Positions 2,442 through 30,259 are shown, numbered from the stretch's first letter. The stretch is 32,000 nt of DNA from an uncultured bacterium (GCA_903866395.1 CAIPNM010000371.1:5787-37786); one strand, 5' to 3'. Made by a program: numbers and translations. Notes: a model not told the origin generated them from the letters alone.

Positions 2442-2512
2442 TTTTGCGGGGGGCGCGGCTACGCGTCTCGGGCATCTGCATGGCACCTCGGCTACCATTC
2501 GGGTCGAAACGG

Positions 2513-10750: not shown

Positions 10751-10789
10751 GGGCTAGGCGGTTTGATTCGATTTCCGGAGTGCATCGCA

Positions 10790-14412: not shown

Positions 14413-15777
14413 CTACGCGCTCACGCTGGGCAGGCCCGCAAGCGCCATCGCCAGTTCTTTCTCGTCGTAACTTTCGTCACGCAGTTCGCCCGCGAAGTAC
14501 TTCTGGTAGGCGCTCATGTCGAAGTGCCCATGTCCGCACAGGTTGAACAGGATGGTTTCCGAGCGTCCTTCGCGCTTACAGCGTAGCGCCTCTTCAATGG
14601 CGCCTTTGACTGCATGATTTGCCTCCGGCGCGGGTACGATGCCTTCGCTGCGCGCGAACTGAACGCCCGCTGCAAAGCATTCCGTTTGGGTGTAGGCGCT
14701 GGCCTCGATCAACCCAAGTTCCTTCAGATGCGAGACCAGCGGCGCCATGCCGTGATATCGCAGGCCGCCCGCGTGAAACGCCGGTGGCGTGAAGGTAGAC
14801 CCCAAAGTGTGCATCTTGACGAGCGGGGTCATCTTGCCGGTGTCGCCGAAGTCGTAACCGTAGCGGCCTCGCGTGAGCGACGGGCAAGCTGCGGGCTCAA
14901 CCGCAACGATGCGAGGCTTGACCCCGCCTCGCAGACCGTGCCCGATGAAGGGGAAGGTGATGCCGGCGAAATTCGAGCCGCCGCCTGTGCAGCCCACGAT
15001 CACATCGGGCCAGGCGTTGGCCATCTGCATCTGTTCGATGGCTTCGAGACCGACGATAGTCTGGTGCATCAGGACATGGTTCAGCACTGAGCCCAGCGCG
15101 TACTTAGTGTCTTCTCGCTGCGCAGCGAGTTCGACCGCCTCGGAGATGGCGATACCGAGGCTGCCCGGATGGTCGGGCCGCTCTGCCAGCACACTTCGGC
15201 CGTATACAGTTTCTGTCGACGGTGAGGGCAGGCAACGCGCACCATAGGTTTCCATGACTGCGCGCCGGTAGGGCTTCTGGTCATAGGACACCCGAACCTG
15301 GAACACGAGGATTTCCAGCCCATAGATCTGGCCTGCAAAAGAGAGCGAGGTGCCCCACTGACCCGCGCCAGTTTCCGTGGTGAGGCGCTTCACGCCAGCC
15401 GCAGCATTGAAGAACGCCTGCGGCACCGCGGTGTTGGGCTTGTGGCTGCCCGCCGGGCTTACCCCCTCGTATTTGTAAAAAATCTTGGCCGGGGTGCCGA
15501 GTGCCTTTTCGAGGCGGTGTGCGCGATAAAGCGGCGAGGGGCGCCAAAGACGGTAGACCTCGCGCACTGGCTCCGGAATCTCGATCTCGCGCTCGGTGCT
15601 CACTTCCTGAAGGATCAGGTCCATGGGAAAGAGCGGGGCAAGATCTGCCGGGCCGATTGGCTGCAAGGTGCCCGGGTGCAGGACGGGAGGCAGCGCCACG
15701 GGAAGGTCGGCCTGAATGTTGTACCAGGCGCGCGGCATCTGTGCTTCGTCGAGCTGATACTTGGTCGGTGTCGTCAT
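14413..15777 (-). CDS. TrpB2-type (TrpB-like) PLP-dependent beta-replacement enzyme
   Basis: The 454-aa length is typical of TrpB2. The N-terminal extension MPRAWYNIQADLP, then RPSPLYRAHRLEKALGTPAKIFYKYEGVSPAGSHKPNTA (PLP lysine), GGGSNFAG and the C-terminal LFNLCGHGHFD are all present. SD GGAGAC lies upstream. Confidence 0.9.
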   Translation of the reverse strand: MTTPTKYQLDEAQMPRAWYNIQADLPVALPPVLHPGTLQPIGPADLAPLFPMDLILQEVSTEREIEIPEPVREVYRLWRPSPLYRAHRLEKALGTPAKIFYKYEGVSPAGSHKPNTAVPQAFFNAAAGVKRLTTETGAGQWGTSLSFAGQIYGLEILVFQVRVSYDQKPYRRAVMETYGARCLPSPSTETVYGRSVLAERPDHPGSLGIAISEAVELAAQREDTKYALGSVLNHVLMHQTIVGLEAIEQMQMANAWPDVIVGCTGGGSNFAGITFPFIGHGLRGGVKPRIVAVEPAACPSLTRGRYGYDFGDTGKMTPLVKMHTLGSTFTPPAFHAGGLRYHGMAPLVSHLKELGLIEASAYTQTECFAAGVQFARSEGIVPAPEANHAVKGAIEEALRCKREGRSETILFNLCGHGHFDMSAYQKYFAGELRDESYDEKELAMALAGLPSVSA

Positions 15778-16888: not shown

Positions 16889-17917
16889 TTAACCGCCGAG
16901 ATGGCGCGCGACATCGGCGTGAAGTTGCAGCCAGCGGCCCACCGACTCGGCGGGCCGCCGCCCCAGCCCGCATTCGCAGGCAATGCCGAAGGCCGGCGCG
17001 AACGGCCGCGCGGCGTGAATTCGCTCGAGCGCACCCTCGACGCCATCGTCCAGATGCAGAAGCCCCAGAAACAGCTCGCTCCTGGGCGCAAGGCCCAGAC
17101 CGCCGAGCGGGGCGAAATAATTTGAGTCAGTCCGGTTCTGGGGCACCGGTAGATGAAGAAAGTCCAGGCGTCGTGTTGTCCGCGCAATCAGCCCGTTGGC
17201 CACGGCCACCAGGTTTGCCGTGTCCACGGGCTCTTTCCAGTGCCGGTTGTTCATGCTGCCATAGCAGAGATGAAGCCCGAGTTCCACCCCGGCGGGAACC
17301 GCGTTCAGCAGTCTGGCGACGCTGTCGAGTACGCCGCTTTCAATGTCGTTGAAGGGGGCGGGATAGACCCGCTCCCACCAACTCATTTCGGTAGCAACGT
17401 CCCACTGAATGCACAGTGACTCGGATGGAATGACCTCGCAGAGCGCGGCCAGTTCGGCCAGTAGCGCGGCTTCGTAAATCGGGTGAATCTCACGCTGCCA
17501 GTGGTAGCTGATGAAGGAATAGACCGGTGCCCAGGCGGTTGGGAGCGCAACCTGCAGACGCGTGTCCGGAGCGAGGGTGCCGCGGGCCTTGAGCTCCTGA
17601 AAGACCCGCCAGGAGTCGATAGCTTCGGCCGCGAACCCGAGCGGGCCGAAGCGTACGTCGGAGGGTTGCGCGCCGGGGCGCAGCGTGAACGGCGGGAACA
17701 GTTGATAGTCGCGTTCGCGTGCGCTGGATTCGACCAGCGCAGCAACCGCTCCAAATACGGCGCGCTGCCAGGCGATCCAGTTACTGCGGCGACCGGTCTC
17801 GCCGTCTGGCAGGCGCCGCGCGCTGCGTCCCAGTGTTTGCGCGGCCGCCTGAAAAACGGTCGCCGAATCCCTGAGCGGCACGCTGCCCACCAGCAGCGTG
17901 GCTACGCCGGTGGACAT
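16889..17917 (-). CDS. Short MetE-like / UROD-superfamily TIM-barrel protein, putative Zn-dependent alkyl- or methyltransferase (function unknown)
   Basis: The 342-aa product shows the block order of the catalytic domain of cobalamin-independent methionine synthase. The blocks are LLVGSVPLR (cf. GSFPR), CIQWDVATE (cf. IQIDEPA), LHLCYGS (His-x-Cys zinc ligands), LFLGLLHLDD (cf. LGVVD) and ACECGLGR (C-terminal Cys ligand, cf. DCGL). Its start overlaps the upstream gene's stop by 1 nt (TGATG). Confidence 0.55.
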   Translation of the reverse strand: MSTGVATLLVGSVPLRDSATVFQAAAQTLGRSARRLPDGETGRRSNWIAWQRAVFGAVAALVESSARERDYQLFPPFTLRPGAQPSDVRFGPLGFAAEAIDSWRVFQELKARGTLAPDTRLQVALPTAWAPVYSFISYHWQREIHPIYEAALLAELAALCEVIPSESLCIQWDVATEMSWWERVYPAPFNDIESGVLDSVARLLNAVPAGVELGLHLCYGSMNNRHWKEPVDTANLVAVANGLIARTTRRLDFLHLPVPQNRTDSNYFAPLGGLGLAPRSELFLGLLHLDDGVEGALERIHAARPFAPAFGIACECGLGRRPAESVGRWLQLHADVARHLGG

Positions 17918-18912
17918 CAGCGGCCGACGAACTGGTTGGTGAACAGTTCAGCGACCGGTGTTTCCTTGGGAACAATGCCCTGAGACACGTAAAACTTCTG
18001 AATGGCGGAGAGCTTCTCGGCGTTGATCGCGCCGAGCGGGCCCGCGCCCTGGTAGGTGTACTCGGTGTACTGGCTGAACACATCTTCAAGGAACGCTTCG
18101 CGGCCTTTGAAGGTGGGCGAGCCGGCAATGAAATCAGGCACCACCGCCTTCGGGTCTTTCATGATGTCGGCAAGCCCGGCGAGTGTGGCGCGAACCAGTT
18201 TCTGGATGAGCTCGGGCCGCTTGGCGATCATGTCGTCGGAGGCAAGGATGGCCTGCGTGGTGGTGGGGATGAACTGGTCGGAGGCCACCGTGGTGACCTT
18301 GGCGCCAGCGCCACGGGCGCTGATCGCAAAATCGACCGGGCCCGCAAACGCCTGAGCCTTGCCGGTGGCGGGCTGCTGCCAGACGCCCACCGGGCCAGCC
18401 GCCTGCACCTCGACATCATTCTTGGTGAGTCCCGCCGACGCCAGCACACCCAGGAGCACGTAGTAGGACGTGTCCTGATAAGACATGACGGTGATGGTGC
18501 GGCCCTTGAGATCGGCCACTTTCTTGATGCCCGCGGTATCGAGAACATGAAGGTGATGGAGCGCGCGGCCACCGATCAGGGCGACAGCTTTGACTGGCAC
18601 GCCTTGGGCGCGAACGATGATGGGCGTGTCGCCGATTCCGCCGCCGATGGGCGCATTGCCCGCGCCGACCTGCTTGGCTACATCGACCCCGCCCTTGGCG
18701 ACCAGGAAGTTCACCTTCAGGCCTTCGCGGGCGTAGTAGCCGCGCTGCTGCGCGAGCACCCAGGGCGCAAACGCCGGCAGGGTGGGCGGGGCAGGCAACA
18801 GGTAGGCCACCTCTTCCAACTTTTGCGGGGCTTGCGCCTGCGCTGCAGTACAGGGGATGAGGGTGGCGGCAGAAAGGGAAAGGGCCGCGAGGGTGCCGGC
18901 GATACGGTTCAT
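17917..18912 (-). CDS. NMT1/THI5-like (NitT/TauT/SsuA-type) periplasmic substrate-binding protein, no cognate permease or ATPase nearby
   Basis: The signal peptide is MNRIAGTLAALSLSAATLIPCTAAQAQA. A two-lobe SBP pattern follows (PWVLAQQRGYYAREGLKVNF...GGVDVAKQVGAGNAPIGG...IKKVADLKGRTITV...LASAGLTKNDVEV). SD AGGAGGAG lies upstream. Confidence 0.75.
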   Translation of the reverse strand: MNRIAGTLAALSLSAATLIPCTAAQAQAPQKLEEVAYLLPAPPTLPAFAPWVLAQQRGYYAREGLKVNFLVAKGGVDVAKQVGAGNAPIGGGIGDTPIIVRAQGVPVKAVALIGGRALHHLHVLDTAGIKKVADLKGRTITVMSYQDTSYYVLLGVLASAGLTKNDVEVQAAGPVGVWQQPATGKAQAFAGPVDFAISARGAGAKVTTVASDQFIPTTTQAILASDDMIAKRPELIQKLVRATLAGLADIMKDPKAVVPDFIAGSPTFKGREAFLEDVFSQYTEYTYQGAGPLGAINAEKLSAIQKFYVSQGIVPKETPVAELFTNQFVGR

Positions 18913-18939
18913 GAGCTCCTCCTGACGGGGTGGACGCTT

Positions 18940-18955
18940 GCGCCGGGACCGGCGC
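18940..18955. promoter_or_regulatory. GC-rich inverted repeat in the divergent intergenic region (candidate operator or 5'-UTR hairpin)
   Basis: GCGCCGG-GA-CCGGCGC forms 7-bp arms. It lies in the 107-bp spacer between the minus-strand SBP operon and the plus-strand Rieske operon. No convincing -35/-10 pair could be placed by eye. Confidence 0.2.
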
Positions 18956-19019
18956 CGCGCGTGTGTTTTAGTGAGTCACATAGTAGCATCGGCCTGTCAT
19001 TTTTCAGCAGGGGACGGGG

Positions 19020-19379
19020 ATGAATCCAAGCGGCGAAACCATCATGCTTACCGTGTTCCTTCGGCATGATCAGTCGCAGAACCTCGACCAGATTCAGCGC
19101 ACACTTGCCGAGCGCAACTGGTGGGATCGGTTTCCGCCAGCAGGCGTCGACATCGTGTCGTGGAATGTGGTGATGGGGATTGGTCAGATCGTTACCCTGC
19201 GCCTGCCGCCCGACAAACTAGCGATGGTCAATGTCGAACTGGAGCGCTCGGCGTGGGGGGTGTTCACCACCGAATTTTTTCCCACCTACGATTTTGTGCC
19301 CGTGCGTGAGCGGATCCGCGCGCGCGCTCATGCTGGCGAATGGTCGGCGCCGTCGCCCCAGTCCGGAGAGCAGCCATGA
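19020..19379 (+). CDS. Small cytoplasmic protein of unknown function (possibly DUF3303-like alpha+beta fold)
   Basis: The 119-aa ORF has strong GC3 bias and GGGGA just upstream of its ATG. The pattern RFPPAGVDIVSWNVV...(15)...W...TEFFPTYDF recalls the DUF3303 skeleton (P-x-G-[VL]-x2-x-SW ... W ... P-V). That comparison is from memory and weak. An alternative start is ATG 19044. Confidence 0.6.
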   Translation: MNPSGETIMLTVFLRHDQSQNLDQIQRTLAERNWWDRFPPAGVDIVSWNVVMGIGQIVTLRLPPDKLAMVNVELERSAWGVFTTEFFPTYDFVPVRERIRARAHAGEWSAPSPQSGEQP

Positions 19380-19618
19380 ATCCGTTCGGCGATCGCAGGT
19401 TTCCCGAGCCCTGGATGCAGCCGCACCAGGCCCGCCGGGCTCCGCCAACCGATGATGAGAACGCACTGGCCGCATCCATCGAGGCTGCGTTTGCGGCGGG
19501 GGTGTGGGATCTTGCAGGCTTGGTCGCGCGCTTGAACGCCGATGGTCTGCGCACGCCGGCCGGCGAGCCCTGGACCGAGGCGCGCTACCGCGATGTCATG
19601 GCCCGACTGGGTCGCTGA
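19376..19618 (+). CDS. Small protein with a recombinase-domain-like helix-turn-helix segment (function unknown)
   Basis: The 80-aa ORF starts in an ATGA overlap with the upstream stop and has strong GC3 bias. The C-terminal LAGLVARLNADGLRTPAGEPWTEARYRDVMARLG resembles the Ln-x2-Gi-x-T-x2-G-x2-W-x5-V-x2-iL segment of serine-recombinase 'recombinase' domains. No catalytic recombinase domain is present. Confidence 0.6.
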   Translation: MNPFGDRRFPEPWMQPHQARRAPPTDDENALAASIEAAFAAGVWDLAGLVARLNADGLRTPAGEPWTEARYRDVMARLGR

Positions 19619-19625
19619 GGGACAC

Positions 19626-20696
19626 ATGCCCACCGATCCCACCGATCAAGAGATCGAGACCCTGCTTCGTATGGGGCTGCGTAACCGCTGGCATCCGCTT
19701 TGTCCGTCGCATTTTGTGACCGATCGACCCGTGTCGCTGTATCGGCTCGGGCTCAAGCTCGTGCTGTGGCGCGACGCTTCAGGAACAGTTTGCGTGCAGG
19801 ATGATCACTGCCCGCATCGCGGCGCGCCGCTCTCCCTAGGGCGTCACCTGGGCGACCGGCTCGCGTGTGCCTATCATGGCGTGGAGGTGTCCACAACCGG
19901 CAAGGTGCTGTCGGTGCCGGGCAGTCCAGGCTGCAGGCTTGAAGGGCAGATGGCAGTTCGCACCTATCCTGCGCGCGAACTGAAAGGGGCAATCTTTGCC
20001 TACGTGGGCGATTCGCTTCATCCGGAACCGTGTGCGTTCGAGCCGCCGGAGCAGCTGGCCTCCGACGAATACGAAGCATTTCTCTGCTACGCCGAATGGC
20101 GAACCGCTTACCGCTATCTGATCGACAACAATCTCGATCCCATGCACGGCAGCTTTCTGCATCGGCAGTCACATTCCATGGCGGTGGGCGATGTCCGCGC
20201 AAATTTTCAGGTGCGCGATACCGCGAGCGGGTTTCGCTTCGAGAAGGTCACGCAGCGTGATGTGAATTTCGACTGGAGCGAGTGGTGTGACACCGGTGCC
20301 CTCTACGCGCGGCTGGAAATCCCCTATCCCAGATCGGGCGGACCCGGCGGCAACTTCGGCATCATCTTCATGTCCACGCCTATCTCCGACACGCTCTGCG
20401 CAAACTTCTTCTGGCGTAATCGCCGCGTGCAGGGTTGGGAGCGTGACACCTGGCGTTTTCTTTACCGGAACCGGCTCGAGGCCCGGCACTGGCAGGTGCT
20501 TGAGCAGGATCGTGCAATGCTCGAGGCCGTTGAACCCGATGCTAACCAGAACGAGTGCTTCTACGACCATGATGTGGGGGTTGCGCGCGTGCGCCGCTGG
20601 ATGCGGGAACGCGCAATTGAACAGCTGCGGGCGCTGAACGCGGCTGGTGCGCGCAAGCCCTGGGAGCGACGCGCTGCCGCAGGAGTTTCAACATGA
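19626..20696 (+). CDS. Rieske [2Fe-2S] non-heme-iron oxygenase, alpha (catalytic) subunit, alpha-only (KshA/phthalate-family-like) type
   Basis: SD GAGGGA precedes ATG 19626. The Rieske motif is CPHRGAPLSLGRHLGDRLACAYHG (C-x-H-x17-C-x2-H). The mononuclear iron motif is NNLDPMHGSFLHRQSH (D-x2-H-x4-H). No beta subunit, ferredoxin or reductase gene is in the window. Confidence 0.85.
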   Translation: MPTDPTDQEIETLLRMGLRNRWHPLCPSHFVTDRPVSLYRLGLKLVLWRDASGTVCVQDDHCPHRGAPLSLGRHLGDRLACAYHGVEVSTTGKVLSVPGSPGCRLEGQMAVRTYPARELKGAIFAYVGDSLHPEPCAFEPPEQLASDEYEAFLCYAEWRTAYRYLIDNNLDPMHGSFLHRQSHSMAVGDVRANFQVRDTASGFRFEKVTQRDVNFDWSEWCDTGALYARLEIPYPRSGGPGGNFGIIFMSTPISDTLCANFFWRNRRVQGWERDTWRFLYRNRLEARHWQVLEQDRAMLEAVEPDANQNECFYDHDVGVARVRRWMRERAIEQLRALNAAGARKPWERRAAAGVST

Positions 20697-21094
20697 CCCT
20701 TCGCAGAGTCACCTGTCCTGAGGTGCCCGAATCGGTAGCGCCTTTCTCGCAATGCCTGGTGGTCGACCGACAGGTGTTCCTGTCGGGGGTGACAGCGGCC
20801 GGGCCCGACGGGGAGATCCGCGGTGGCAGCGACATGGCGGCGCAAACGCGTGCCTGCCTGGAGAAAATCAGCCATTTATTGCGGGCGGCGGACTCGGATC
20901 TGAGTGATGTGGTGAAGCTCACGATTTACACCACAGACATCTCGCGCCGCGTCGAAATTTCCGCTGCGCGCCGCGAGCTTCTTCGCGAGCCTTTTCCGTG
21001 TTCTACGCTGGTGGAGGTGAAGGCGCTCGCTGCGCCCGGATTGCTGGTTGAAATCGATGCCACCGCGCTGATTGGCGCCTCGCGGGGAAGCTGA
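20693..21094 (+). CDS. YjgF/YER057c/UK114 (Rid) family protein lacking the canonical RidA arginine
   Basis: Its ATGA overlaps the oxygenase stop, and AGGAG lies 7 nt upstream. The family fold blocks are PFSQCLVVDRQVFLSGVTA, AQTRACLEKISHLL, VVKLTIYTTD and LLVEIDATA. The segment FPCSTLVEV aligns with E. coli RidA FPARSCVEV, so the deaminase Arg is replaced by Ser. Confidence 0.8.
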   Translation: MTLRRVTCPEVPESVAPFSQCLVVDRQVFLSGVTAAGPDGEIRGGSDMAAQTRACLEKISHLLRAADSDLSDVVKLTIYTTDISRRVEISAARRELLREPFPCSTLVEVKALAAPGLLVEIDATALIGASRGS

Positions 21095-21099
21095 CCGCC

Positions 21100-23085
21100 A
21101 TGACCCACTTGCCGCCCGACCTGCTGCGCTTTAAGGACCGTATCCTGTTTCTCTCAGAGGACCCGGACAAAGTCGCATTACAACTCGCCGGCCAGGCGCT
21201 CGCCCGTGAAGCGGCGGGCACGCTTCGCGACAACGTCTCCACTGACGAGATCACACCCGTGCCGGCCATGACCATATGGGACGACCGGCTGGGCCGTATC
21301 CCTTACACCGGCTTTAAGGCCGGGCAGCGCCTGCCGATCGGGCGCGATGCGATTCGCGACGCCGGTATCGAGGTGGTGGTGGCTGGCGCACGCTATGGCA
21401 AGGGGTCTTCGCGCGAGCATAGTCCGGCGGCCGAGCGGGCGGCAGGTGTTCGCCTGGTGATTGCCGAAAGCTTCGAGCGCATTTACAGGCAGAACGCTGA
21501 CAATATCGGTCTCCTCACCTCCACCGATTTCGGGCTGATTGAACGGATCCGTCGCGGTGAGCCGATCGCGCTTTCTGAACTGCTCGCTGACCGCGATCAG
21601 CTCGCAGCCGCCATTGTTCGCGCGGGCGGACTGATCGAGTTCGGTCAGCGCCATCTGCGCTCGGTGAGCCCGCAACCGATGGCGGCCTCGGGTGACGCTC
21701 CCCCTGCGCGGACGCTCTTCGAAAAAATCATCGAGCGCAATCTGCTTGCAACCCCGGTGAGCGCTCAGGCGGTGCATCCTGGCGCCGGGGTGTTTGTACA
21801 CGCCGACTGGCGCTTCATCATTGAGTACTACGCGGGCATGGCCATTCATATGCTGGAGCGCCGCTTTGGCAGCGCGCTCTCGCTTGTGGACCCTGAACGT
21901 ATCGTGATGTTCGAAGATCACACCTCCTATGCCGAGGAAAGCACGGTGCATGTTCGACTGGGGCTGCTCTCCCAGGTGCGCGAGATGTGCGAGGTGCAGC
22001 GCAATTTTGCCGAACGCCATCAGCTGAAGTTCTTTCGCACGCTGCCCGAAGACGAGGCGGCCGCCGATGAGGGTCGGCATGTGGCGGGTATTTCTCACGC
22101 TGTGATGTCTGAGCAGTTCGCGCTGCCCGGCCAGCTCATCGTGGGCACCGATTCGCATACGCCGCATAGCGGCGCGCTCGGGTGCGTGGCGATCGGTGTA
22201 GGCACGACCGATATGGCCAACGCCTTCGTCACCGGGGCGATCCGGCTCACCATTCCCGACACGATTCGGGTCGAATTCATGGGGCGTCTGCGACCCGGCG
22301 TCACGGCCAAGGACGCGGTGTTGCATCTGCTGTCGCAGCCGGCCATCCGGGCGGGTGGGGCGCTGGGCAAGGTGTTTGAATTCTGTGGTGAGGCGGTTCG
22401 GGCCATGGATACCGACGAACGGGCCACGCTCACCAACATGGTGGCCGAGCTCGGTGGACTCACTGGGCTGGTCGAGCCCGACGACGAAACCGTCCGCTAC
22501 CTGAAGGAGCGCCGCGGTATCGACTTCCAAATCGAAAGCTGGATGCGCAGTGACCCCGACGCGCCCGTTGCGGAGCATCTGCGGATCGATTGCGCCGAGC
22601 TCGGGCCGATGCTGGCGCGGCCCGGCGATCCGGGTAACGGCCTCGCAATGGCTGAATTGGCTGCACGGGTGCCGATCACCATCGCCTACGGGGGCTCGTG
22701 CACCGGCGGCAAGCGCGCCGATTTCGATCATTATTTTGCGGTGCTGCGCTGGGCCTTCGATCGCGGGCTCAAAGTGGCGCCTGGGGTGCAGCTCTTCCTG
22801 CAGTTCGGCACCACGGCCGTCCGCGACTATTGCATCGCCCGCGGTTACATGCCGGTGTTTGAATGGTCGGGCGCGAGGCTGTTGCAGCCTTCCTGCGGCG
22901 CCTGTGCCAACTGCGGCCCGGGTTCCTCGGTGAGTGCCGAGCAGGTGACCGTGAGCGCAATCAACCGCAATTTCCCTGGCCGTAGCGGGCCGGGTCAGGT
23001 GTGGCTCGCGAGCCCGCCCACGGTCATTGCGAGTGCAATCGCGGGCGAACTGATGTCGTTCGAGGGACTGCAGGCTCGTCACTGA
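21100..23085 (+). CDS. Aconitase-family hydro-lyase, single chain with the LeuD-like swivel domain N-terminal to the LeuC-like domains (order 4-1-2-3)
   Basis: Residues 1 to about 190 carry NVSTDEITP, GARYGKGSSREHSPAAERAAGVRLVIAESFERIYRQNADNIGL (small-subunit/swivel motifs). Residues from about 200 to 661 carry GTDSHTPHSGALGCVAIGVGTTDMA, GGSCTGGK, PSCGACANCGPG (three cluster Cys) and AINRNFPGRSG. All canonical catalytic motifs are intact. Confidence 0.85.
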   Translation: MTHLPPDLLRFKDRILFLSEDPDKVALQLAGQALAREAAGTLRDNVSTDEITPVPAMTIWDDRLGRIPYTGFKAGQRLPIGRDAIRDAGIEVVVAGARYGKGSSREHSPAAERAAGVRLVIAESFERIYRQNADNIGLLTSTDFGLIERIRRGEPIALSELLADRDQLAAAIVRAGGLIEFGQRHLRSVSPQPMAASGDAPPARTLFEKIIERNLLATPVSAQAVHPGAGVFVHADWRFIIEYYAGMAIHMLERRFGSALSLVDPERIVMFEDHTSYAEESTVHVRLGLLSQVREMCEVQRNFAERHQLKFFRTLPEDEAAADEGRHVAGISHAVMSEQFALPGQLIVGTDSHTPHSGALGCVAIGVGTTDMANAFVTGAIRLTIPDTIRVEFMGRLRPGVTAKDAVLHLLSQPAIRAGGALGKVFEFCGEAVRAMDTDERATLTNMVAELGGLTGLVEPDDETVRYLKERRGIDFQIESWMRSDPDAPVAEHLRIDCAELGPMLARPGDPGNGLAMAELAARVPITIAYGGSCTGGKRADFDHYFAVLRWAFDRGLKVAPGVQLFLQFGTTAVRDYCIARGYMPVFEWSGARLLQPSCGACANCGPGSSVSAEQVTVSAINRNFPGRSGPGQVWLASPPTVIASAIAGELMSFEGLQARH

Positions 23086-23212
23086 CCCACGCCGGGCCCC
23101 GGCGCCTGATGTCCCCGGAAGGTGAGCGGTTGAAGCTTGTTATGATCGTCCCGACCTACCGGTTTGGGGCCGCTCGGCCGCCTTCCTTTCATCCACTGTG
23201 ACCGGGTTAGCC

Positions 23213-24475
23213 ATGTCTTGCTCAGCGCTTAAACGGATTGCCGCGGGCTCCCTGCTCGTGTTTGCGCTCGTGGCCGGGGCCCCGTCAGGGTGGACGCAAG
23301 ACGCCGTTCCGGGCTACAGCATCGATCAGGTAACCCAGCGGGTGCTGGCCGGCAATCCCGATCTGCAGGTGACCGCGCTGGCGCGGGATGCTGCGCGTTC
23401 GGCGAGCACGGCTGCGCTCGCGCTCCCGAATCCGAAGCTAGACGTTTCGGGGGGGCGCGCTGCGCCGCGCGCGTCAATCGGTGGCTCGTCGTCGGTTCAG
23501 GCGTTTGGTGCCTCTCAGCTGATCGAAAGCACGGCAGTGCGGGGGGCCCGCGTTGATTCGGCGCGCGCGGCCGAACGCGGCGCTGGGCATGCCGTGCTGC
23601 AGGTTCGTAATCAATTGGTCGCGCAGACGCGCCTGGGGGCCTTCGAGGCGCTGCTACGACAGGAGGAGGCCGAGGCGGCGTCCGAGGCCTTGCGGCTACT
23701 CGACCAGGTTCGTGAGCGGGTCCGGGTGCGGGTCGACAGCGGCGAGGCGCCGCGCTACGAACTCATCAAGGCCGACGCGGAAATCATCAGCGCGCGTCAG
23801 CGTCGCGATGCCGCCCGTCTGATGGCCGAGAAAGCGCTGCTCGATCTCAACCGGCTGGCCGGTGGCGCGCTTCCCGATCGCTGGCGTCTTGCCGCCACGC
23901 TCGACGAAGCCGGACCGGCGCTGGAGCTCGACCCACTGATCCGGGAGGCCCTGGCTCGCAGCCCGGAGCTTGCACAATTGCAGGCGGAAGTGGATCGGGC
24001 GCGCGCTCAATTGCAGGCCGCGCAGGCGAGCCGCTGGCCCGGTGTCGAGGTCCGTGTCGACCATTCGCGCGAACCTGATGTGATTCAGAACAAGATCGGA
24101 CTCAGCGTCGCAGTGCCGCTTCTTGACAATCGATCCAGCGCAATCGAACAGGCCAGCGTCGAACTGTCACGCGCGCAGCGTCTGCTCGAGGGGCGCCGTA
24201 CCGAATTGCGCCAGCAGGTTCTTCTTGGCTGGAAGTCTCTTGAAATGGCGACCGGCGCGGTCGAAGCCCTCAGCCGAGGGGCAGTGCGCGAGGCTGAGGC
24301 TGCGCTTCGCGTTGCCGAGGCCGCTTATCGATTCGGCGAGCGAGGCATTCTCGAGGTGCTCGATGCGCAGCGCGTGTTGCGCTCGGTTCGCGCCGATCTT
24401 CTGCAGGCGCGTTTCCAGGCGCAGGCCGCGCGGGTTGTGCTCGAGCAGCTTGCGGCCCGTTATGTTGATCGCTGA
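23213..24475 (+). CDS. Outer-membrane efflux protein, TolC/CzcC family (OMF of an HME-RND system)
   Basis: The signal peptide is MSCSALKRIAAGSLLVFALVAGAPSGW. Two repeated coiled-coil/OEP halves are present (NPDLQ..., SPELAQLQAEVDRARAQLQAAQASRWP). It sits directly upstream of the MFP and RND genes. GTG 23198 is an alternative start. Confidence 0.8.
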   Translation: MSCSALKRIAAGSLLVFALVAGAPSGWTQDAVPGYSIDQVTQRVLAGNPDLQVTALARDAARSASTAALALPNPKLDVSGGRAAPRASIGGSSSVQAFGASQLIESTAVRGARVDSARAAERGAGHAVLQVRNQLVAQTRLGAFEALLRQEEAEAASEALRLLDQVRERVRVRVDSGEAPRYELIKADAEIISARQRRDAARLMAEKALLDLNRLAGGALPDRWRLAATLDEAGPALELDPLIREALARSPELAQLQAEVDRARAQLQAAQASRWPGVEVRVDHSREPDVIQNKIGLSVAVPLLDNRSSAIEQASVELSRAQRLLEGRRTELRQQVLLGWKSLEMATGAVEALSRGAVREAEAALRVAEAAYRFGERGILEVLDAQRVLRSVRADLLQARFQAQAARVVLEQLAARYVDR

Positions 24476-24503
24476 TTCTGTTCGAATGTTTCCGAGGTGT
24501 GTG

Positions 24504-25724
24504 ATGGCCCGACCGATTAATCGCCTGATGTTTGCCACAGCCATCGCTGCGGCGTTCACGCTGGCCGGGTGTGGCGAGCGCAGCCCTCAGGCGCCGGTGG
24601 CCACGCCGTCGGGCGCTGCGAAAGCTGGCAGTGGCAGCGCCGGTACGGGTGCAGCTGCCGCGGGCGCGCGCCGGGCGGCTGACCCGATGGAGGTCGCCGT
24701 TCGCCCTGAGATGGCGGCCTACTTCAAGGTTGGCAAAGTTGATCAGGTCGAGATGGCGCAGACCCTGGATGCGGTGGGCCGAATCGAGGCAGATGCGCGC
24801 AGGGTGGCCCGCATCGGTGCGGCCGTCTCGGGCCGCGTCACCGAGATTCTTGCGGAGGTCGGTGACACGGTGCAGCGCGGCCAACCGCTTGCCGAAATCG
24901 CAAGTCCGGAGCTCACCACCGCGCAGCTCAATTATCTGCGGTCCTATTCGGCGAGTACCCAGGCCGAACGCGCAGTCGACCGGGCCCGCCAGCTGCTGCA
25001 GGCCGATGTTATTGGGTCGGCCGAGTTACAGCGGCGGGAGTCCGAGCTCACCATTGCGCGTGCCGAGCTCGGTGCGTCACGCGACCAGCTATCCCTCATC
25101 GGCATGACGAATCTCCAGATCGATACCTTGCGCGGTAGCGGCACGTTGAACGCCCGCATGCCGATTGCATCGTCGCTGTCCGGGGTAGTGATCGAGCGCA
25201 AGCTCAGCAAGGGCCAGGTAGCGCAGCCTGGCGATTCGCTCTTCACGGTGGCCGACCTGAGCAGTGTCTGGGTGGTGGGCTCGCTGCCCGAGCAGGTGGC
25301 CAGGCAGGTGAAGATCGGCCAGACCGTCGAGATGGAAGTGGCAGCGCAACGCGGCCGAAAAATTGTTGGGAAAATCATTCATGTCGGTGACATGCTTTCA
25401 TCCGAAACCCGGTCGATCGAATTTCGCACCGAGGTTGCTAACCCGCAGCGCGAACTCAAACCCCTCATGATGGTCTCGATGCGCGTGCTCGGCGAACCGC
25501 AGCGACAGCTCGCGGTGCCGGCGGATGCTGTGGTGCGCGATAACGACCGAGACCATGTTTTCGTGCGCACCGGGCCTGACCGGTTCCGGCTGGTTCCAGT
25601 CGAACTCGGCTATGCGGTGGGGGGCTTGCGCCCGGTGCGGCGAGGGTTACAAGAAGGGGTCGAGATCGCGGTATCCGGCGCCTTTCACCTGAACAACGAA
25701 CGCAGGCGCGCCGAACTGGAGTAA
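24504..25724 (+). CDS. Efflux RND periplasmic adaptor (membrane fusion protein, CzcB/HlyD family), lipoprotein
   Basis: ATG at 24504 is preceded by GAGGTG. The lipobox is FTLAGC. A biotinyl-lipoyl-like hairpin (GRVTEILAEVGDTVQRGQPLAEIASPEL), a coiled-coil and a beta-barrel segment follow. The longer ORF from 24123 overlaps czcC and is rejected. Confidence 0.85.
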   Translation: MARPINRLMFATAIAAAFTLAGCGERSPQAPVATPSGAAKAGSGSAGTGAAAAGARRAADPMEVAVRPEMAAYFKVGKVDQVEMAQTLDAVGRIEADARRVARIGAAVSGRVTEILAEVGDTVQRGQPLAEIASPELTTAQLNYLRSYSASTQAERAVDRARQLLQADVIGSAELQRRESELTIARAELGASRDQLSLIGMTNLQIDTLRGSGTLNARMPIASSLSGVVIERKLSKGQVAQPGDSLFTVADLSSVWVVGSLPEQVARQVKIGQTVEMEVAAQRGRKIVGKIIHVGDMLSSETRSIEFRTEVANPQRELKPLMMVSMRVLGEPQRQLAVPADAVVRDNDRDHVFVRTGPDRFRLVPVELGYAVGGLRPVRRGLQEGVEIAVSGAFHLNNERRRAELE

Positions 25725-25728
25725 GCCC

Positions 25729-28700
25729 ATGATCGCGAGCCTCATTCGGGCGGCGCTCGGCCAGCGCCTGATCGTCATCGTCCTGTCGCTGGTGCTGGTG
25801 GCCTTTGGCGTTCGCGAGGCGCTTCGCCTGTCGGTCGATGCGTTTCCTGACGTCACCAACGTGCAGGTACAGATTGCCACCGAGGCCGTGGGCCGCTCGC
25901 CCGAGGAAATCGAACGCTTCGTCACCGTGCCGCTTGAAATCGCCATGACGGGGCTACCGGGGCTGGTGGAGATGCGCTCCCTCAACAAGAGCGGGCTGTC
26001 GATCATCACGCTCGTCTTTACCGATCAGACCGATGTGTATTTCGCGCGTCAGATGGTGACCGAGCGCCTGATCGAAGTGACACCGCGAATGCAGGCGGGA
26101 ATCGTGCCGGTGCTGGGCCCAGTGTCCACAGGCTTGGGCGAGGTGTACCAATACACCATCGATCATCCCGATGATGGGCAGCGTGCGCTCACCGAACAGG
26201 AACTCGCCGAGCGGCGCGCCGTACAGGACTGGGTGGTGCGACCCCTGCTTCGCTCGATCCCCGGCGTGGCGGAAATCAATTCTCAGGGCGGTTATGTGCG
26301 CCAGTATCAGGTGCAGGTCGATCCGGGCCGACTGTTCCACTTCCGTATGTCGGTCCAGCAGGTGGTGCAGGCCATTGCCGCCAACAACGCCAATTCCAGC
26401 GGCGGCATCCTGCCTCGTGCCTCTGAACAGTTTCTCATTCAGGGTGTGGGCCTCATTCGCACGGTAGACGACATTGCCAGCATCGTGATCCGTGAAGATG
26501 CTGGTGTGCCGGTGTTTGTTCGTGATGTGGCAAGCGTCAGCATCGGCTCCGAAGTCCGTCAGGGGGCCATCGTGAAGGGCGGCTACACCGAGTCGGTCGC
26601 GGGCATCGTCCTCATGATGCGCGGCGGCAACGCCAAGGAAATCGTGGGCCGCATCAAGGATCGCGTCGATGAGATCAATGCCAAGGGCATGCTGCCGGGC
26701 GGACTGAAGATCGTTCCCTTTTACGACCGGACCGACCTGGTTGACGCCGCGCTCTGGACGGTCGGCAAGGTGCTGATCGAGGGCATCTTGCTGGTGGTCG
26801 TGATCCTGTTCATTTTTCTGGGCGATGTGCGCTCTAGCCTCATCGTGGTGGCCACGATCATCATCGCGCCACTCACCACCTTCATCGTGATGAACCGCTA
26901 CGGTATCTCGGCGAACCTCATGTCCCTGGGAGGGCTGGCCATTGCCATCGGTCTGATGGTCGATGCCACGGTGGTGGTGGTCGAAAACGTCTACCTGAAG
27001 CTTGGTGAGTACGTGCCCGGAGGGAAGTCCCGCCGACGCATTGTGTTCGAAGCCACCACGGAGGTGGCAACGCCCACCATCTTCGGCATCGCCATCATCA
27101 TTCTCGTGTTTCTGCCCCTCATGACGCTGCAGGGCATTGAGGGCAAGATGTTTGCGCCGCTTGCGCTCACCATCGCCATCGCGCTGGCGGTTTCGCTGGT
27201 GGTGTCACTGCTTCTCTCTCCGGTGCTGTGCTCGTTTTTCCTCAAAGGAGGGGGCGACCACGAAACCTGGCTCATTGCTTTCCTCAAGCGCCGCTATACC
27301 CCGTTGCTTGATGCCGCGCTGGGTCTTCCCTGGGTCACCGTGGCCGCGGCGATGGCGCTCCTTGCGGCAGCCGTCGGGTTATTTCCGCTCCTCGGTAAAT
27401 CCTTCATGCCGATCATGAAAGAGGGAGCGCTCACGCCGCAGATCAATCGGGTACCCAGCATTTCGCTGGAAGAGTCGCTACGCATCGAGATGGATGCGAT
27501 GAAGCGAATTGCCGCAGTGCCGGGCGTGAAGATGGTGGTCTCCAAGCTTGGCCGTGGCGAATCGCCCGCCGACCCGGCAGGTCCCAACGAGTCTGATCCT
27601 ATCGTGCTGCTCGACCCGAAATCCGGCCGCAGTCAGGATGAAATCGACGAAGACATCCGGCAACGCCTGTCCACCATCCCGGGGGTACAGATCGTGCTCT
27701 CGCAGCCGATTGCCGAGCGCGTTGACGAAATGGTCACGGGCGTACGCTCGCAGCTTGCCATCAAGGTGTTCGGCAACGAGTTGTCTGAGTTGCGACGCAT
27801 CTCCGAAGCGGTGGCCCGGGTGCTGCGATCGGTGCCCGGTTCGCAGGACATCCGGATCGAGCGGTTGTCAGGGCAGCAGTCGCTACAGATTGAAATCGAC
27901 CGATTCGCCATCGCACGCTATGGCCTCAACGTGGCCGACATTCATCAGATCATCGAGTCCGCTGTTGGTGGCAAGGAGGTGACCTCGGTCTATGAAGGCG
28001 AGCGCCGCTATGCGGTCACGGTCCGGTTTCCGCCCGATCGCCGCAACACCATCGAAGCCATCTCGGCGATCAAGGTGCGCAGCCACGATGGAAGCGAAGT
28101 GCCCCTGTCGGCGCTGGCTCGCATTCGGCTGGTCGATGGCCCGGCGCAGCTCTCGCGCGAAGGGGCCAAGCGCAGGGTGGTGGTGGGCGCCGATGTGAAC
28201 GGCCGCGATCTGGGCGGTTTCGTTGCCGAGGTCCGCCAGCGACTGGATGCGGAGGTCCGGCTGCCCGAGGGCTACTACTTCGACTTCGGCGGGCAGTTCG
28301 AGAACATGGAGCGCGCGATGGCAACCCTGTCGGTCATCGTGCCCATCACGGTTGGCGCCATTTTCTTTCTGCTGTTTCTGCTCTTCAATTCGGTCAAGCT
28401 CGCCTCGCTCATCATTCTGGTGCTGCCGTTTGCATCAATTGGCGGCATCTTCGGATTGTTTGTCACGGGCGAATACCTGAGCGTTCCCGCCTCGGTGGGC
28501 TTCATTGCCTTGTGGGGCATCGCAGTGTTGAACGGCGTGGTGCTGGTGACCTGCATCCGACGCCTGCGCGACGACGGCAAGGATGTGGCGTTGGCGGTCC
28601 GCGAAGGCTGCCTGCTTCGCTTTCGCCCGGTGATGATGACCGCCACCGTTGCGCTGCTCGGGCTGGTCCCGTTTCTGTTCGCTACGGGGCCGGGCTCAGA

Positions 28701-29687: not shown

Positions 29688-29722
29688 TGCGGTCTCCGGA
29701 AGAAAAGGCGTGGGGGGCGGGG

Positions 29723-30235: not shown

Positions 30236-30259
30236 GGTGGGATGGGTGAGGGCGGTTGA

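What the first reader, a model, noticed from the sequence alone, without database searches (positions are those of the whole stretch)
19020..23085. Translationally coupled five-gene operon that matches no pathway I can name
Five plus-strand genes are packed with start/stop overlaps or very short gaps:
- ATGA overlap at 19376
- 7-nt gap at 19619-19625
- ATGA overlap at 20693
- 5-nt gap at 21095-21099

This packing argues for one functional unit. The products are:
- a 119-aa unknown alpha+beta-type protein
- an 80-aa protein with a recombinase-like HTH
- a complete alpha-only Rieske oxygenase
- a Rid protein without the deaminase arginine
- a domain-permuted but catalytically intact aconitase-family hydro-lyase

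Oxygenation (or oxidative N/O-demethylation) followed by an Fe-S hydratase/isomerase step suggests catabolism of a substituted di- or tricarboxylate or an amino-acid-like compound. I cannot match the combination to a characterised route. No reductase or ferredoxin for the Rieske enzyme is encoded in the window.
Basis: partly seen in the sequence, partly recalled or inferred. Interest (0 to 1): 0.75.

Follow-up and report, generated by a model that had tools for sequence, protein, structure and literature searches.

The report
Mosaic operon around uncharacterised Rieske module
The five tightly packed genes are real, but they are an evolutionary mosaic: a four-gene oxygenase module of unknown substrate, found in hundreds of bacterial species, has been joined to an unrelated resident iron-sulfur hydratase gene, and its most interesting feature is two small unknown proteins that almost always accompany this particular oxygenase.

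Summary
All five ORFs, both ATGA overlaps, the 7-nt and 5-nt gaps and every domain call check out, and all five genes are under purifying selection (dN/dS 0.05-0.19).

The interpretation as one five-step pathway is not supported.
- Genes 1-4 (unknown 119-aa protein, HTH_62, VanA-type Rieske, Arg-less Rid) form a module found in at least 318 species.
- Elsewhere the module usually sits with a PDR/VanB reductase, an NMT1-type ABC transporter, an extradiol dioxygenase, SDRs, a TPP enzyme, a hydrolase and IclR.
- Gene 5 (fused LeuD-LeuC hydro-lyase) follows the module only in near-identical relatives (2 of 80 loci).
- A relative with 81%-identical gene 5 (L083) has the same backbone and the same promoter region but lacks genes 1-4.
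- Other gene 5 homologues pair with TctC/LysR, not with Rieske genes.

The real novelty is the module. HTH_62 directly precedes 70 of 73 Rieske copies of this subfamily, but only 3 of 21 divergent paralogues. Gene 1 is a highly conserved ferredoxin-like protein outside Pfam and precedes 60 of 73. Neither small protein nor the substrate has been characterised anywhere I could search. The most likely function is the first oxygenation step in catabolism of an N-containing aromatic or heteroaromatic acid. The reductase must be encoded outside this window.

The parts
19020..19379 (+). Gene 1: 119-aa protein of an unnamed, highly conserved family (ferredoxin-like beta-alpha-beta-beta-alpha-beta fold plus a C-terminal helix); frequent partner of this Rieske subfamily
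   Evidence: No Pfam or NCBIfam hit. 1219 homologue clusters at 65-97% identity and 43 invariant columns. AF2 model pLDDT 83; only loose dimeric alpha+beta-barrel matches, TM at most 0.55. Within 900 nt upstream of 60 of 73 subfamily Rieske copies. dN/dS 0.07.
19376..19618 (+). Gene 2: 80-aa HTH_62 (PF20552) three-helix protein, acidic, no Cys; near-obligate upstream partner of this Rieske subfamily
   Evidence: Pfam E=6e-26. Directly upstream of 70 of 73 Rieske copies at least 55% identical to gene 3, versus 3 of 21 divergent paralogues. Adjacent in three independently retrieved contexts. Median pI of 71 orthologues is 4.8. Three helices in the fusion model.
19626..20696 (+). Gene 3: alpha-only, VanA/phthalate-family Rieske non-haem-iron oxygenase of an uncharacterised subfamily
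   Evidence: PF00355 plus PF19112. CPHRG...CAYHG and DPMHGSFLH motifs in the translation. Best solved relatives are only E=9e-20. No NCBIfam equivalog. dN/dS 0.05.
20693..21094 (+). Gene 4: Rid-family protein lacking the RidA arginine (Ser instead)
   Evidence: PF01042 E=5e-25, below the TIGR00004 cutoff. FPCSTLVEV aligns with FPARSCVEV. Best solved relatives are 3i7t and PA3499/2ig8. Follows the Rieske gene directly in 37 of 50 canonical loci.
21100..23085 (+). Gene 5: 661-aa fused LeuD-like (N) plus LeuC-like (C) aconitase-family hydro-lyase; a resident gene now co-transcribed with the module
   Evidence: Pfam domain order. Catalytic motifs retained. Family common in Variovorax, Achromobacter and Comamonas with TctC/LysR neighbours. 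Present without genes 1-4 in L083 and L084.
18913..19019 (.). Divergent promoter region shared by the binding-protein gene and gene 1; homologous to the binding-protein/gene 5 intergenic region of L083, with the ATG at the equivalent position
   Evidence: Alignment A2; blastn boundaries 18993 and 21221; no Rfam match.
17917..18912 (-). NMT1/SsuA-type periplasmic binding protein, an orphan here (no permease or ATPase in the window); the usual transporter partner of the module in other genomes
   Evidence: PF09084 E=8e-33. A homologue lies within 10 kb of gene 1 in 60 of 80 loci. No permease or ATPase in the window. dN/dS 0.04-0.07, also in L083.
16889..17917 (-). 342-aa protein with no family assignment, apparently coupled to the binding-protein gene (its start shares base 17917 with that gene's stop codon); probably part of the same inserted island
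   Evidence: No Pfam, NCBIfam or PDB hit. 60-61% homologues next to the module in L004 and L008. Absent between TctC and gene 5 in L084.

Best explanation
The region is a mosaic transcription unit. An island was joined to a resident gene. The island comprises the 342-aa unknown and the NMT1-type binding protein on the minus strand, and gene 1, HTH_62, the Rieske oxygenase and the Rid protein on the plus strand. The resident gene encodes the fused LeuD-LeuC hydro-lyase, so one promoter region now drives genes 1-5. Genes 1-4 are the oxygenase core of a widespread, uncharacterised catabolic system. The VanA-type Rieske enzyme (probably an alpha3 trimer) receives electrons from a PDR/VanB-type reductase. 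That reductase is adjacent in other genomes and must be encoded elsewhere in this one. The enzyme most likely hydroxylates or dealkylates an N-containing aromatic or heteroaromatic acid imported through the NMT1-type system. The acidic three-helix HTH_62 protein most likely acts through protein-protein contact with the oxygenase, as a cognate accessory subunit or effector. Gene 1 is either a third subunit or the next enzyme, for example an isomerase or tautomerase acting on a labile product. The Arg-less Rid protein most likely hydrolyses an imine or enamine product. In other genomes the product then goes to an extradiol dioxygenase, SDRs, a TPP enzyme and a hydrolase. Gene 5 is functionally independent: a hydratase or isomerase for a TctC-imported di- or tricarboxylate that is co-expressed here by genomic accident. 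Shown: the mosaic structure, the co-occurrence statistics, intact motifs and purifying selection. Inferred: physical association of HTH_62 and gene 1 with the oxygenase, the substrate class, the Rid role and the direction of the gain or loss event.
For: Mosaic structure. L083 (gene 5 81% identical) aligns to window 17608-18993 and 21221-23082 and lacks 18994-21220. Its gene map is NMT1 binding protein, gene 5, OEP, CzcB, RND, then ICL-like, LeuD-like and LeuC-like genes. The intergenic regions are homologous with the ATG in register. L084 has TctC next to gene 5 with nothing between. Gene 5 homologues in Achromobacter and Variovorax sit with LysR and TctC. Gene 5 lies within 3 kb of gene 1 in only 2 of 80 loci, and there is no recurrent aconitase-family neighbour.

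Module. At least 318 species carry gene 1. The canonical gene 1, gene 2, Rieske order occurs in 50 of 80 loci, and Rid follows directly in 37. HTH_62 is directly upstream of 70 of 73 subfamily Rieske copies versus 3 of 21 paralogues. It is also adjacent in independently retrieved loci L087, L089 and L090 and in the RefSeq-annotated Caballeronia megaplasmid, which has MFS, gene 1, HTH_62, Rieske, RidA, PDR/VanB and IclR.

Neighbours within 10 kb of gene 1 (of 80 loci): binding protein 60, SDR 61, permease 57, IclR 52, hydrolase 49, TPP 44, cupin 40, VOC dioxygenase 29, PDR 26.

HTH_62 is acidic (median pI 4.8) and has no Cys. A gene 1-HTH_62 fusion lies upstream of a Rieske gene. All genes are under purifying selection. 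Rid-family enzymes specialised for enamine products of ring cleavage are documented (bioRxiv 10.64898/2026.06.05.730449).
Against: No experiment or complex prediction shows that HTH_62 or gene 1 binds the oxygenase. The fusion model has a disordered linker and pTM 0.52, and the fusion comes from a single contig, so it could be a frameshift artefact. Most loci were retrieved through gene 1, so gene 1 co-occurrence is biased upward; two of three Rieske-anchored loci lack an adjacent gene 1. A signal-peptide paralogue of gene 1 in B. cenocepacia stands alone. The window lacks the reductase and every downstream enzyme, so in this genome the module could have been rewired, and the 5-nt gap between genes 4 and 5 means gene 5 could have been recruited. 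The substrate class is inferred only from neighbouring gene families. The direction of the event (insertion here or deletion in L083) is not resolved.
Confidence: 0.6

Rival explanations
1. One reading: all five genes encode one catabolic route in which Rieske oxygenation (or demethylation) is followed by an aconitase-type hydration or isomerisation of a substituted di- or tricarboxylate or amino-acid-like compound.
For: A 5-nt gap between genes 4 and 5 and a single upstream promoter region. All five genes are under purifying selection. The arrangement is kept in L001 and L002, and L003 shares it up to the end of its contig, just inside gene 5. This genome lacks the module's usual downstream enzymes in the window, leaving room for rewiring.
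Against: Gene 5 is absent from the module in 78 of 80 loci, and there is no recurrent aconitase-family neighbour. L083 and L084 keep gene 5 without genes 1-4. Gene 5 homologues associate with TctC and LysR. The module's conserved partners are ring-cleavage type enzymes.
Confidence: 0.12
2. Gene 1 and gene 2 together form a split one-component transcription regulator (an ACT/RAM-like ligand-binding domain plus an HTH DNA-binding domain) that senses the substrate and controls the operon; they are not part of the enzyme.
For: The gene 1 fold resembles ACT/PII/Lrp-RAM-type beta-alpha-beta-beta-alpha-beta domains among its weak fold hits. Gene 2 is classified as a helix-turn-helix. A sensor-HTH fusion exists. 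No other regulator lies next to the operon in this window.
Against: HTH_62 orthologues are acidic, median pI 4.8. Most loci already carry one to three IclR regulators. Gene 1 is more conserved (65-75% identity between Alpha- and Betaproteobacteria) than the enzyme it would regulate (58-62%), which is unusual for a sensor. HTH_62 tracks each Rieske copy, including second copies, rather than each operon. The genes are translationally coupled to the oxygenase.
Confidence: 0.15
3. Gene 1 is a stand-alone enzyme of the pathway (an isomerase, tautomerase, decarboxylase or cofactor-free oxygenase of the dimeric alpha+beta-barrel type) acting on the Rieske product. Only HTH_62 is an oxygenase partner.
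For: The closest fold relatives include muconolactone-isomerase-type enzymes (2ifx, ClcF) and ActVA-Orf6. There are many invariant polar residues (H16, D17, Q18, S19, R37, R61, E73, E75, R76, E85, Y90, D91). Rieske loci exist with HTH_62 but no adjacent gene 1. A gene 1 paralogue exists without any Rieske gene. PcaD-like enol-lactonase-type hydrolases recur nearby.
Against: Fold matches are weak (E about 1e-3, TM at most 0.55). Gene 1 sits at the head of the oxygenase genes rather than with downstream enzymes. A gene 1-HTH_62 fusion exists.
Confidence: 0.3
4. The module in this genome is a non-functional remnant of a horizontally acquired cluster: it has no reductase, permease, ATPase or downstream enzymes.
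For: None of the usual partner families occurs in the 32-kb window. The module is absent in the relative L083.
Against: All four genes and the binding protein are intact and under strong purifying selection across L001-L003 (dN/dS 0.045-0.19 at dS up to 1.5). Catalytic motifs are intact. Partners may lie outside the window.
Confidence: 0.05

Closest known systems
Two-component class IA (phthalate-family) Rieske oxygenases: VanAB, TsaMB, dicamba demethylase DdmC, phthalate dioxygenase/PDR, OxoO/OxoR, KshAB
   Same: An alpha-only oxygenase with an N-terminal Rieske domain and a VanA_C-type catalytic domain. In related loci a PDR/VanB-type FMN/FAD-NAD-[2Fe-2S] reductase is encoded next to it.
   Different: Only distant similarity (best E=9e-20, mostly in the Rieske domain) and no NCBIfam equivalog. 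To my knowledge none of these systems has an HTH_62 protein, a gene 1-type protein or a Rid protein as fixed operon partners. No reductase is encoded in this window.
Rieske N-demethylase complex NdmCDE, in which a non-catalytic protein (NdmE) is needed alongside the oxygenase (from my own knowledge, not tested here)
   Same: It is a precedent for a Rieske oxygenase that depends on an extra non-redox protein. That parallels the proposed role of HTH_62 and gene 1.
   Different: NdmE is GST-like and unrelated in fold to HTH_62 (three helices) or gene 1 (ferredoxin-like). No biochemical evidence exists here.
EthD of the EthABCD cytochrome P450 system and other small dimeric alpha+beta-barrel proteins (muconolactone isomerase, ClcF, ActVA-Orf6, GYD)
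   Same: Gene 1 is predicted to have the same general beta-alpha-beta-beta-alpha-beta fold. From my own knowledge, EthD is a small protein required in vivo by an oxygenase, with unknown mechanism.
   Different: There is no significant sequence match to any of these families. TM-scores are at most 0.55. The gene 1 family has its own invariant motifs (KHDQS, WWDRFPP, NVELERSAWG).
Rid-family 2-aminomuconate deaminases of aminophenol and kynurenine pathways
   Same: A Rid-fold protein embedded in an aromatic catabolic cluster. ALDH, extradiol dioxygenase and aspartate-dehydrogenase-like genes are frequent neighbours of the module. Specialised Rid deaminases that do not act as general RidA enzymes are documented.
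   Different: Orthology was not tested, because I had no reference sequence for a validated deaminase. Gene 4's best solved relatives are proteins of unknown function (3i7t, PA3499).
LeuCD / homoaconitase / dimethylmaleate hydratase (DmdAB) hydro-lyases, and AcnB as a precedent for domain permutation
   Same: Gene 5 keeps the three cluster cysteines, GTDSHT, NRNFxGR and the GSSRE swivel-domain motif. It is most similar to the archaeal-type IPM/citramalate isomerase (E=9e-53).
   Different: The small-subunit domain is fused N-terminally. All NCBIfam hits are below their cutoffs. The usual PAR(F/Y)L substrate loop reads PVPAMTIW, by my reading of the translation against the LeuD motif as I remember it. 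The family is associated with TctC and LysR rather than with leucine or lysine biosynthesis.

Membership tests
Rieske non-haem-iron oxygenase, alpha-only VanA/phthalate family | Rieske [2Fe-2S] domain with CxH...CxxH ligands | tested here: met
   PF00355 E=2e-16; CPHRG...CAYHG in the translation.
Rieske non-haem-iron oxygenase, alpha-only VanA/phthalate family | VanA_C-type catalytic domain with the mononuclear-iron His-x4-His motif | tested here: met
   PF19112 E=1.4e-12, covering profile positions 1-190 of 193; DPMHGSFLH in the translation. The carboxylate ligand was not individually located.
Rieske non-haem-iron oxygenase, alpha-only VanA/phthalate family | Cognate PDR/VanB-type reductase encoded with the oxygenase | tested here: not met
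   None in the 32-kb window. Present within 3 kb of gene 1 in 26 of 80 related loci and in the Caballeronia plasmid.
Rieske non-haem-iron oxygenase, alpha-only VanA/phthalate family | Equivalence to a characterised enzyme (VanA, TsaM, DdmC, PDO, GbcA, CntA and others) | tested here: not met
   The only NCBIfam hit scores 46 bits against a cutoff of 600. The best solved relative scores E=9e-20.
RidA (archetypal imine deaminase) | YjgF/Rid fold | tested here: met
   PF01042 E=5e-25.
RidA (archetypal imine deaminase) | Conserved arginine (E. coli Arg105) that binds the substrate carboxylate | tested here: not met
The TIGR00004 score of 70.6 is below the 106 cutoff.
Aconitase / isopropylmalate isomerase superfamily | Three [4Fe-4S] cysteine ligands and the catalytic GTDSHT and NRNF-x-GR motifs | tested here: met
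   Alignment to 4kp1.
Aconitase / isopropylmalate isomerase superfamily | Membership of a named equivalog (LeuCD, HacAB, AcnA/B/D, DmdAB) | tested here: not met
   All 27 NCBIfam hits are below their cutoffs, for example 303.7 against 612. Domain order is swivel domain first.
HTH_62 (PF20552) | Match to the Pfam model above the gathering score | tested here: met
   90.7 bits against a cutoff of 27, covering profile positions 4-72 of 72. RefSeq names the Caballeronia orthologue the same way.
HTH_62 (PF20552) | DNA binding, as the 'recombinase-like HTH' name implies | not testable with these tools
   Indirect evidence only: a median pI of 4.8 in 71 orthologues argues against it.
   Genes 1-4 are conserved, but gene 5 follows them only in L001 and L002. 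L083 and L084 have gene 5 without genes 1-4.
Dimeric alpha+beta-barrel superfamily (muconolactone isomerase, EthD, ABM, GYD) | beta-alpha-beta-beta-alpha-beta fold with significant structural or sequence similarity to a member | tested here: inconclusive

The most novel reading that the evidence does not exclude
HTH_62, together with the gene 1 protein, is an obligate non-redox subunit or effector of a previously unrecognised class of Rieske oxygenase. The enzyme would then be a three- or four-protein system (oxygenase, HTH_62, gene 1 protein and PDR reductase, with a dedicated Rid) that starts the catabolism of a common natural N-containing aromatic or heteroaromatic acid whose bacterial degradation genes are still unknown.
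Probability: 0.3. Interest if true: 0.7.

Novelty: new variant of a known kind. Interest (0 to 1): 0.5.

Why it matters
Rieske oxygenases are usually described as an oxygenase (alpha or alpha-beta) plus electron-transfer partners. Here two unstudied small proteins are tied to one oxygenase subfamily: HTH_62 in 96% of copies and gene 1 in 82%, across at least 318 species. A conserved Rid protein accompanies them. If these proteins are needed for activity, they add a new component type to a heavily used enzyme class in biocatalysis and bioremediation. That would also explain why such oxygenases might fail in heterologous reconstitution. The surrounding supercluster (NMT1 ABC transporter, PDR, extradiol dioxygenase, SDRs, PRK07064-type TPP enzyme, hydrolase, aspartate-dehydrogenase-like enzyme, IclR) is a widespread pathway with no assigned substrate. 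The case also shows that tight start/stop packing can reflect recent insertion into an existing operon rather than shared function.

Tried and rejected
- PicB, the four-component 6-hydroxypicolinate monooxygenase, was considered as a match. It is an ordinary ferredoxin/reductase/alpha/beta system.
- Literature searches found nothing functional. They covered PF20552/HTH_62, the P. aeruginosa PA3498-PA3506 genes that I remembered as a similar neighbour set, and a kynurenate degradation cluster. I could not verify the composition of the PAO1 cluster with the tools. Kynurenate remains only an illustrative candidate.
- The 342-aa upstream protein has no Pfam, NCBIfam or PDB hit. I thought I saw MetE-like HxCY / CGLG zinc motifs by eye, but this is untested.
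- The binding protein has no close solved relative with a ligand.
- No riboswitch or other Rfam family occurs in the promoter region or anywhere in the window, and no inverted repeat was reported there.
- No natural HTH_62-Rieske fusions were found; the long ORFs were over-extended calls.
- The B. cenocepacia gene 1 paralogue is secreted and in an unrelated context, and the 92-aa ORF after it is not HTH_62-like.
- The promoter and terminator scan was uninformative: 0 promoter-like sites, and terminator-like sites at the chance level.
- The fusion model gave no confident inter-domain geometry.

Full report
OBSERVATION

The five plus-strand ORFs exist as described:
- gene 1: 19020-19379, 119 aa
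- gene 2: 19376-19618, 80 aa
- gene 3: 19626-20696, 356 aa
- gene 4: 20693-21094, 133 aa
- gene 5: 21100-23085, 661 aa

The sequence shows the ATGA overlap at 19376-19379. It also shows a 7-nt gap (19619-19625) with a GAGGGA Shine-Dalgarno-like motif before the ATG of gene 3. ORF coordinates give the ATGA overlap at 20693 and the 5-nt gap before gene 5. A longer ORF for gene 3 starts at 19542, but homologues are 342-365 aa long and a 99%-identical protein is 356 aa, which supports the 19626 start.

- Gene 1 has no family.
- Gene 2 is PF20552 HTH_62 (E=6e-26).
- Gene 3 is Rieske plus VanA_C.
- Gene 4 is a Rid-fold protein.
- Gene 5 has the Aconitase_C (LeuD-like) domain N-terminal to the Aconitase (LeuC-like) domain.

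Gene 5 keeps GTDSHT, the GSCT cysteine, the CxxC pair and NRNFxGR when aligned with M. jannaschii IPM isomerase. No reductase or ferredoxin is encoded anywhere in the window. All five genes evolve under purifying selection relative to L001, L002, L003 and L083 (dN/dS 0.045-0.19).

CONTEXT

The window is a 64% GC, TctC-rich Burkholderiales-type sequence.
- Upstream and divergent lie an NMT1/SsuA-type binding protein (17917-18912), a 342-aa protein with no family (16889-17917), a TctC gene and a TrpB-like PLP enzyme.
- Downstream lie a czc-like OEP/MFP/RND operon (23198-28818), then a PrpB/ICL-like lyase and a LeuD/DmdB-like plus LeuC-like pair on the minus strand.

THE OPERON IS A MOSAIC

I anchored a genome scan on an alignment of gene 1 homologues. 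It returned 318 species-level hits, of which 80 loci were fetched. They are mostly Alpha- and Betaproteobacteria, plus a Streptomyces albidoflavus and a Vulcanimicrobiota MAG.

Genes found within 3 kb of gene 1, out of 80 loci:

| Gene | Loci |
|---|---|
| Rieske (gene 3) | 69 |
| HTH_62 (gene 2) | 58 |
| Rid (gene 4) | 48 |
| Fused hydro-lyase (gene 5) | 2 |

The two loci with gene 5 are L001 and L002, which are 93-96% identical to the window. The canonical gene 1, gene 2, Rieske order occurs in 50 loci, and Rid follows directly in 37 of them. No aconitase-family gene recurs near the module. The only exceptions are three Roseomonas loci with an ordinary LeuC/LeuD pair about 6.5 kb away at 28-34% identity.

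Gene 5 itself belongs to a large family of roughly 660-aa fused proteins in Variovorax, Achromobacter, Comamonas and Aquabacterium at 66-69% identity. Their neighbours are LysR and TctC genes, and once an RraA-like gene, not Rieske genes.

Two closer relatives are decisive.
- L084 (gene 5 74% identical) has the TctC gene divergent from gene 5 with nothing between them.
- L083 (gene 5 81% identical) has the binding-protein gene divergent from gene 5, followed by the czc operon and the ICL-like, LeuD-like and LeuC-like genes. This is the window's backbone without genes 1-4.
- By blastn, L083 matches window 17608-18993 and 21221-23082 and lacks 18994-21220.
- The intergenic region upstream of gene 1 in the window is homologous to the one upstream of gene 5 in L083, with the ATG at the same position.

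One promoter region therefore drives genes 1-5 here and gene 5 alone in L083. The binding protein remains 93% identical and strongly constrained in L083.

Two histories are possible. An island carrying the 342-aa gene, the binding-protein gene and genes 1-4 may have been inserted and genes 1-4 later lost in L083. Alternatively, the parts may have arrived in two separate insertions. I favour the first history, because the binding protein travels with the module in distant taxa (within 10 kb in 60 of 80 loci). This is inference, not a demonstrated result. Either way, gene 5 is a resident gene and genes 1-4 are a separable module.

WHAT THE MODULE IS

Neighbour clustering and annotation show a recurrent supercluster around genes 1-4. 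RefSeq labels on a Caballeronia megaplasmid and Pfam labels on independent contigs show the same set. It comprises:
- a PDR/VanB-type reductase, usually right after Rid
- a two-domain VOC extradiol dioxygenase
- the ABC permease and ATPase that go with the NMT1 binding protein (an MFS transporter replaces them in Caballeronia)
- one or two SDRs, and a monocupin or bicupin
- a PcaD-like alpha/beta-hydrolase
- a TPP enzyme matching the uncharacterised NCBIfam equivalog PRK07064 above its cutoff
- IclR regulators
- less often an ALDH, an aspartate-dehydrogenase-family protein and an FAD monooxygenase

None of these partner families occurs in the window. This genome therefore carries a minimal version: the binding protein, the 342-aa protein and genes 1-4. 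Its reductase must lie elsewhere.

The Rieske enzyme has no close characterised relative. Its best solved matches are a putative phthalate dioxygenase, SxtT, DdmC, CarAa, KshA and OxoO at E of 1e-19 or weaker, and it has no NCBIfam equivalog.

THE TWO SMALL PROTEINS

I built profile HMMs from the orthologue sets and scanned the region upstream of every Rieske copy in the fetched loci.

| Rieske copies | HTH_62 directly upstream | Gene 1 within 900 nt |
|---|---|---|
| At least 55% identical to gene 3 (n=73) | 70 | 60 |
| More divergent paralogues (n=21) | 3 | 0 |

Three loci retrieved through the Rieske protein rather than gene 1 all have HTH_62 adjacent, and one of the three has gene 1. HTH_62 is thus a subfamily-specific, near-obligate partner. 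Gene 1 is a frequent third member, although its frequency is inflated by the way the loci were sampled.

HTH_62 orthologues are acidic (median pI 4.8, n=71) and have no cysteines. This argues against DNA binding or electron transfer and for a protein-protein role.

Gene 1 is unusually conserved for a protein of unknown function. Identity between Alpha- and Betaproteobacteria is 65-75%, higher than the Rieske enzyme's 58-62%, and the alignment has 43 invariant columns. Its AlphaFold model (pLDDT 83) is a ferredoxin-like beta-alpha-beta-beta-alpha-beta domain with a C-terminal helix. Fold searches return only loose matches: a methylmuconolactone-methylisomerase-like protein, ClcF, ActVA-Orf6, ACT/PII domains and IS200 transposases, with TM at most 0.55. 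It matches no Pfam family.

One natural gene 1-HTH_62 fusion (P0062) lies 31 nt upstream of a Rieske gene. In its model both domains are confident, but they are joined by a disordered linker and pTM is 0.52. It comes from a single contig and could be a frameshift artefact. A 51%-identical paralogue of gene 1 in B. cenocepacia has a signal peptide and sits in an unrelated context. The wider superfamily is therefore not tied to oxygenases.

MECHANISM (inferred)

The Rieske oxygenase, fed by a PDR-type reductase, most likely performs the first hydroxylation or dealkylation of a small planar acid imported by the NMT1-type system. Extradiol dioxygenase, hydrolase, ALDH, Rid and aspartate-dehydrogenase-like genes recur nearby. 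This suggests an N-containing aromatic or heteroaromatic substrate, with an imine or enamine intermediate handled by the Arg-less Rid. Specialised Rid deaminases acting after ring cleavage are documented.

HTH_62 most likely binds the oxygenase. Gene 1 is either a further subunit or the next enzyme. Gene 5 most likely serves an unrelated TctC-linked di- or tricarboxylate route. The substrate cannot be named from these data: I found no ligand-bound relative of the binding protein, no riboswitch and no literature.

COMPARISON AND NOVELTY

The system works like a class IA two-component Rieske oxygenase (VanAB, TsaMB, DdmC, PDO/PDR) and meets the fold-level tests for that family. It is not equivalent to any characterised member, and it carries partners that those systems lack. 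Gene 4 is a Rid-family protein but fails the RidA arginine test. Gene 5 is an aconitase-superfamily enzyme but fails every equivalog test. I rate the finding a new variant of a known kind.

The conserved module of HTH_62, gene 1, Rieske and Rid is real, widespread and uncharacterised.

LIMITS
- Most loci were ascertained through gene 1.
- Gene calls in the fetched loci came from a simple GC3-based ORF filter.
- No complex prediction or experiment was possible.
- Two fold libraries were unavailable.
- The direction of the insertion or deletion event is unresolved.

Noticed in passing
window 28821-31531 (minus strand): A PrpB/ICL-like lyase (288 aa), a LeuD/DmdB-family small subunit (170 aa, no Pfam hit but TIGR02087 E=2e-30) and a LeuC-like large subunit (423 aa) lie together. 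The set resembles a dimethylmaleate-hydratase plus dimethylmalate-lyase type pair. In L001 it sits directly after gene 5, because the czc operon is missing there.
   Followed up: partly
window 23236-28748: The czc-like OEP/MFP/RND efflux operon is present in the window, L002 and L083, and its OEP gene follows gene 5 in L084 (that contig ends soon after). It is absent from L001, which is otherwise 93% identical. This is a presence/absence polymorphism immediately downstream of gene 5.
   Followed up: partly
window 16889-17917 (minus strand): A 342-aa protein has no Pfam, NCBIfam or PDB sequence match. Its start shares base 17917 with the stop codon of the binding-protein gene upstream of it. 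Homologues of 60-61% identity lie next to the module in L004 and L008. By eye it carries HLCYG and CECGLGRR motifs that resemble the zinc site of MetE-type enzymes, but this was not tested.
   Followed up: partly
window 14413-15777 (minus strand): A TrpB-like PLP enzyme (NF009057, 730 bits against a cutoff of 366) lies at the end of the divergent gene string, after a TctC gene. No homologue of it lies near the module in other genomes.
   Followed up: no
L086 10815-11294 (Burkholderia cenocepacia chromosome 2, NZ_CP091013): A 51%-identical paralogue of gene 1 has an N-terminal signal peptide and altered motifs (FYKAF in place of WWDRF). It sits next to LysR and MprF-like genes with no Rieske gene. 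The gene 1 superfamily therefore has a secreted branch of unknown role.
   Followed up: partly
L009, L010, L012, L048, L049 (about 2.1-4.5 kb downstream of gene 1): Several loci carry a second HTH_62 plus Rieske pair (55-59% identical to gene 3) without a second gene 1. The pair appears to duplicate as a unit.
   Followed up: partly
L014, L024, L026, L037, L039, L077 and similar Xanthobacteraceae/Alphaproteobacteria loci: A variant architecture occurs: gene 1 is followed directly by the NMT1 binding protein and a 45-47% identical Rieske gene. A second Rieske gene (41-45% identical) lies about 3.8 kb upstream on the opposite strand, and in L039 and L077 (and the related L035) a divergent HTH_62 lies just upstream of gene 1.
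   Followed up: no
L082 (Variovorax saccharolyticus) 7037-11476: A gene 5 homologue sits in the string LysR, gene 5 homologue, TctC, RraA-like. RraA-like proteins include HMG/CHA aldolases, which hints that this hydro-lyase family may hydrate an unsaturated tricarboxylate ahead of an aldolase. This rests on a single locus.
   Followed up: no
window 21178-23082 (minus strand): A 634-aa ORF runs antisense to gene 5. It is the kind of long spurious ORF expected in high-GC DNA and was rejected by the GC3 filter.
   Followed up: yes
window 6957-10750 and 687-4120: An indolepyruvate-ferredoxin-oxidoreductase-like alpha/beta pair (the beta subunit matches NF006179 above its cutoff) and an L-arabinonate dehydratase equivalog followed by a gamma-glutamyltranspeptidase. 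Both appear unrelated to the finding.
   Followed up: no
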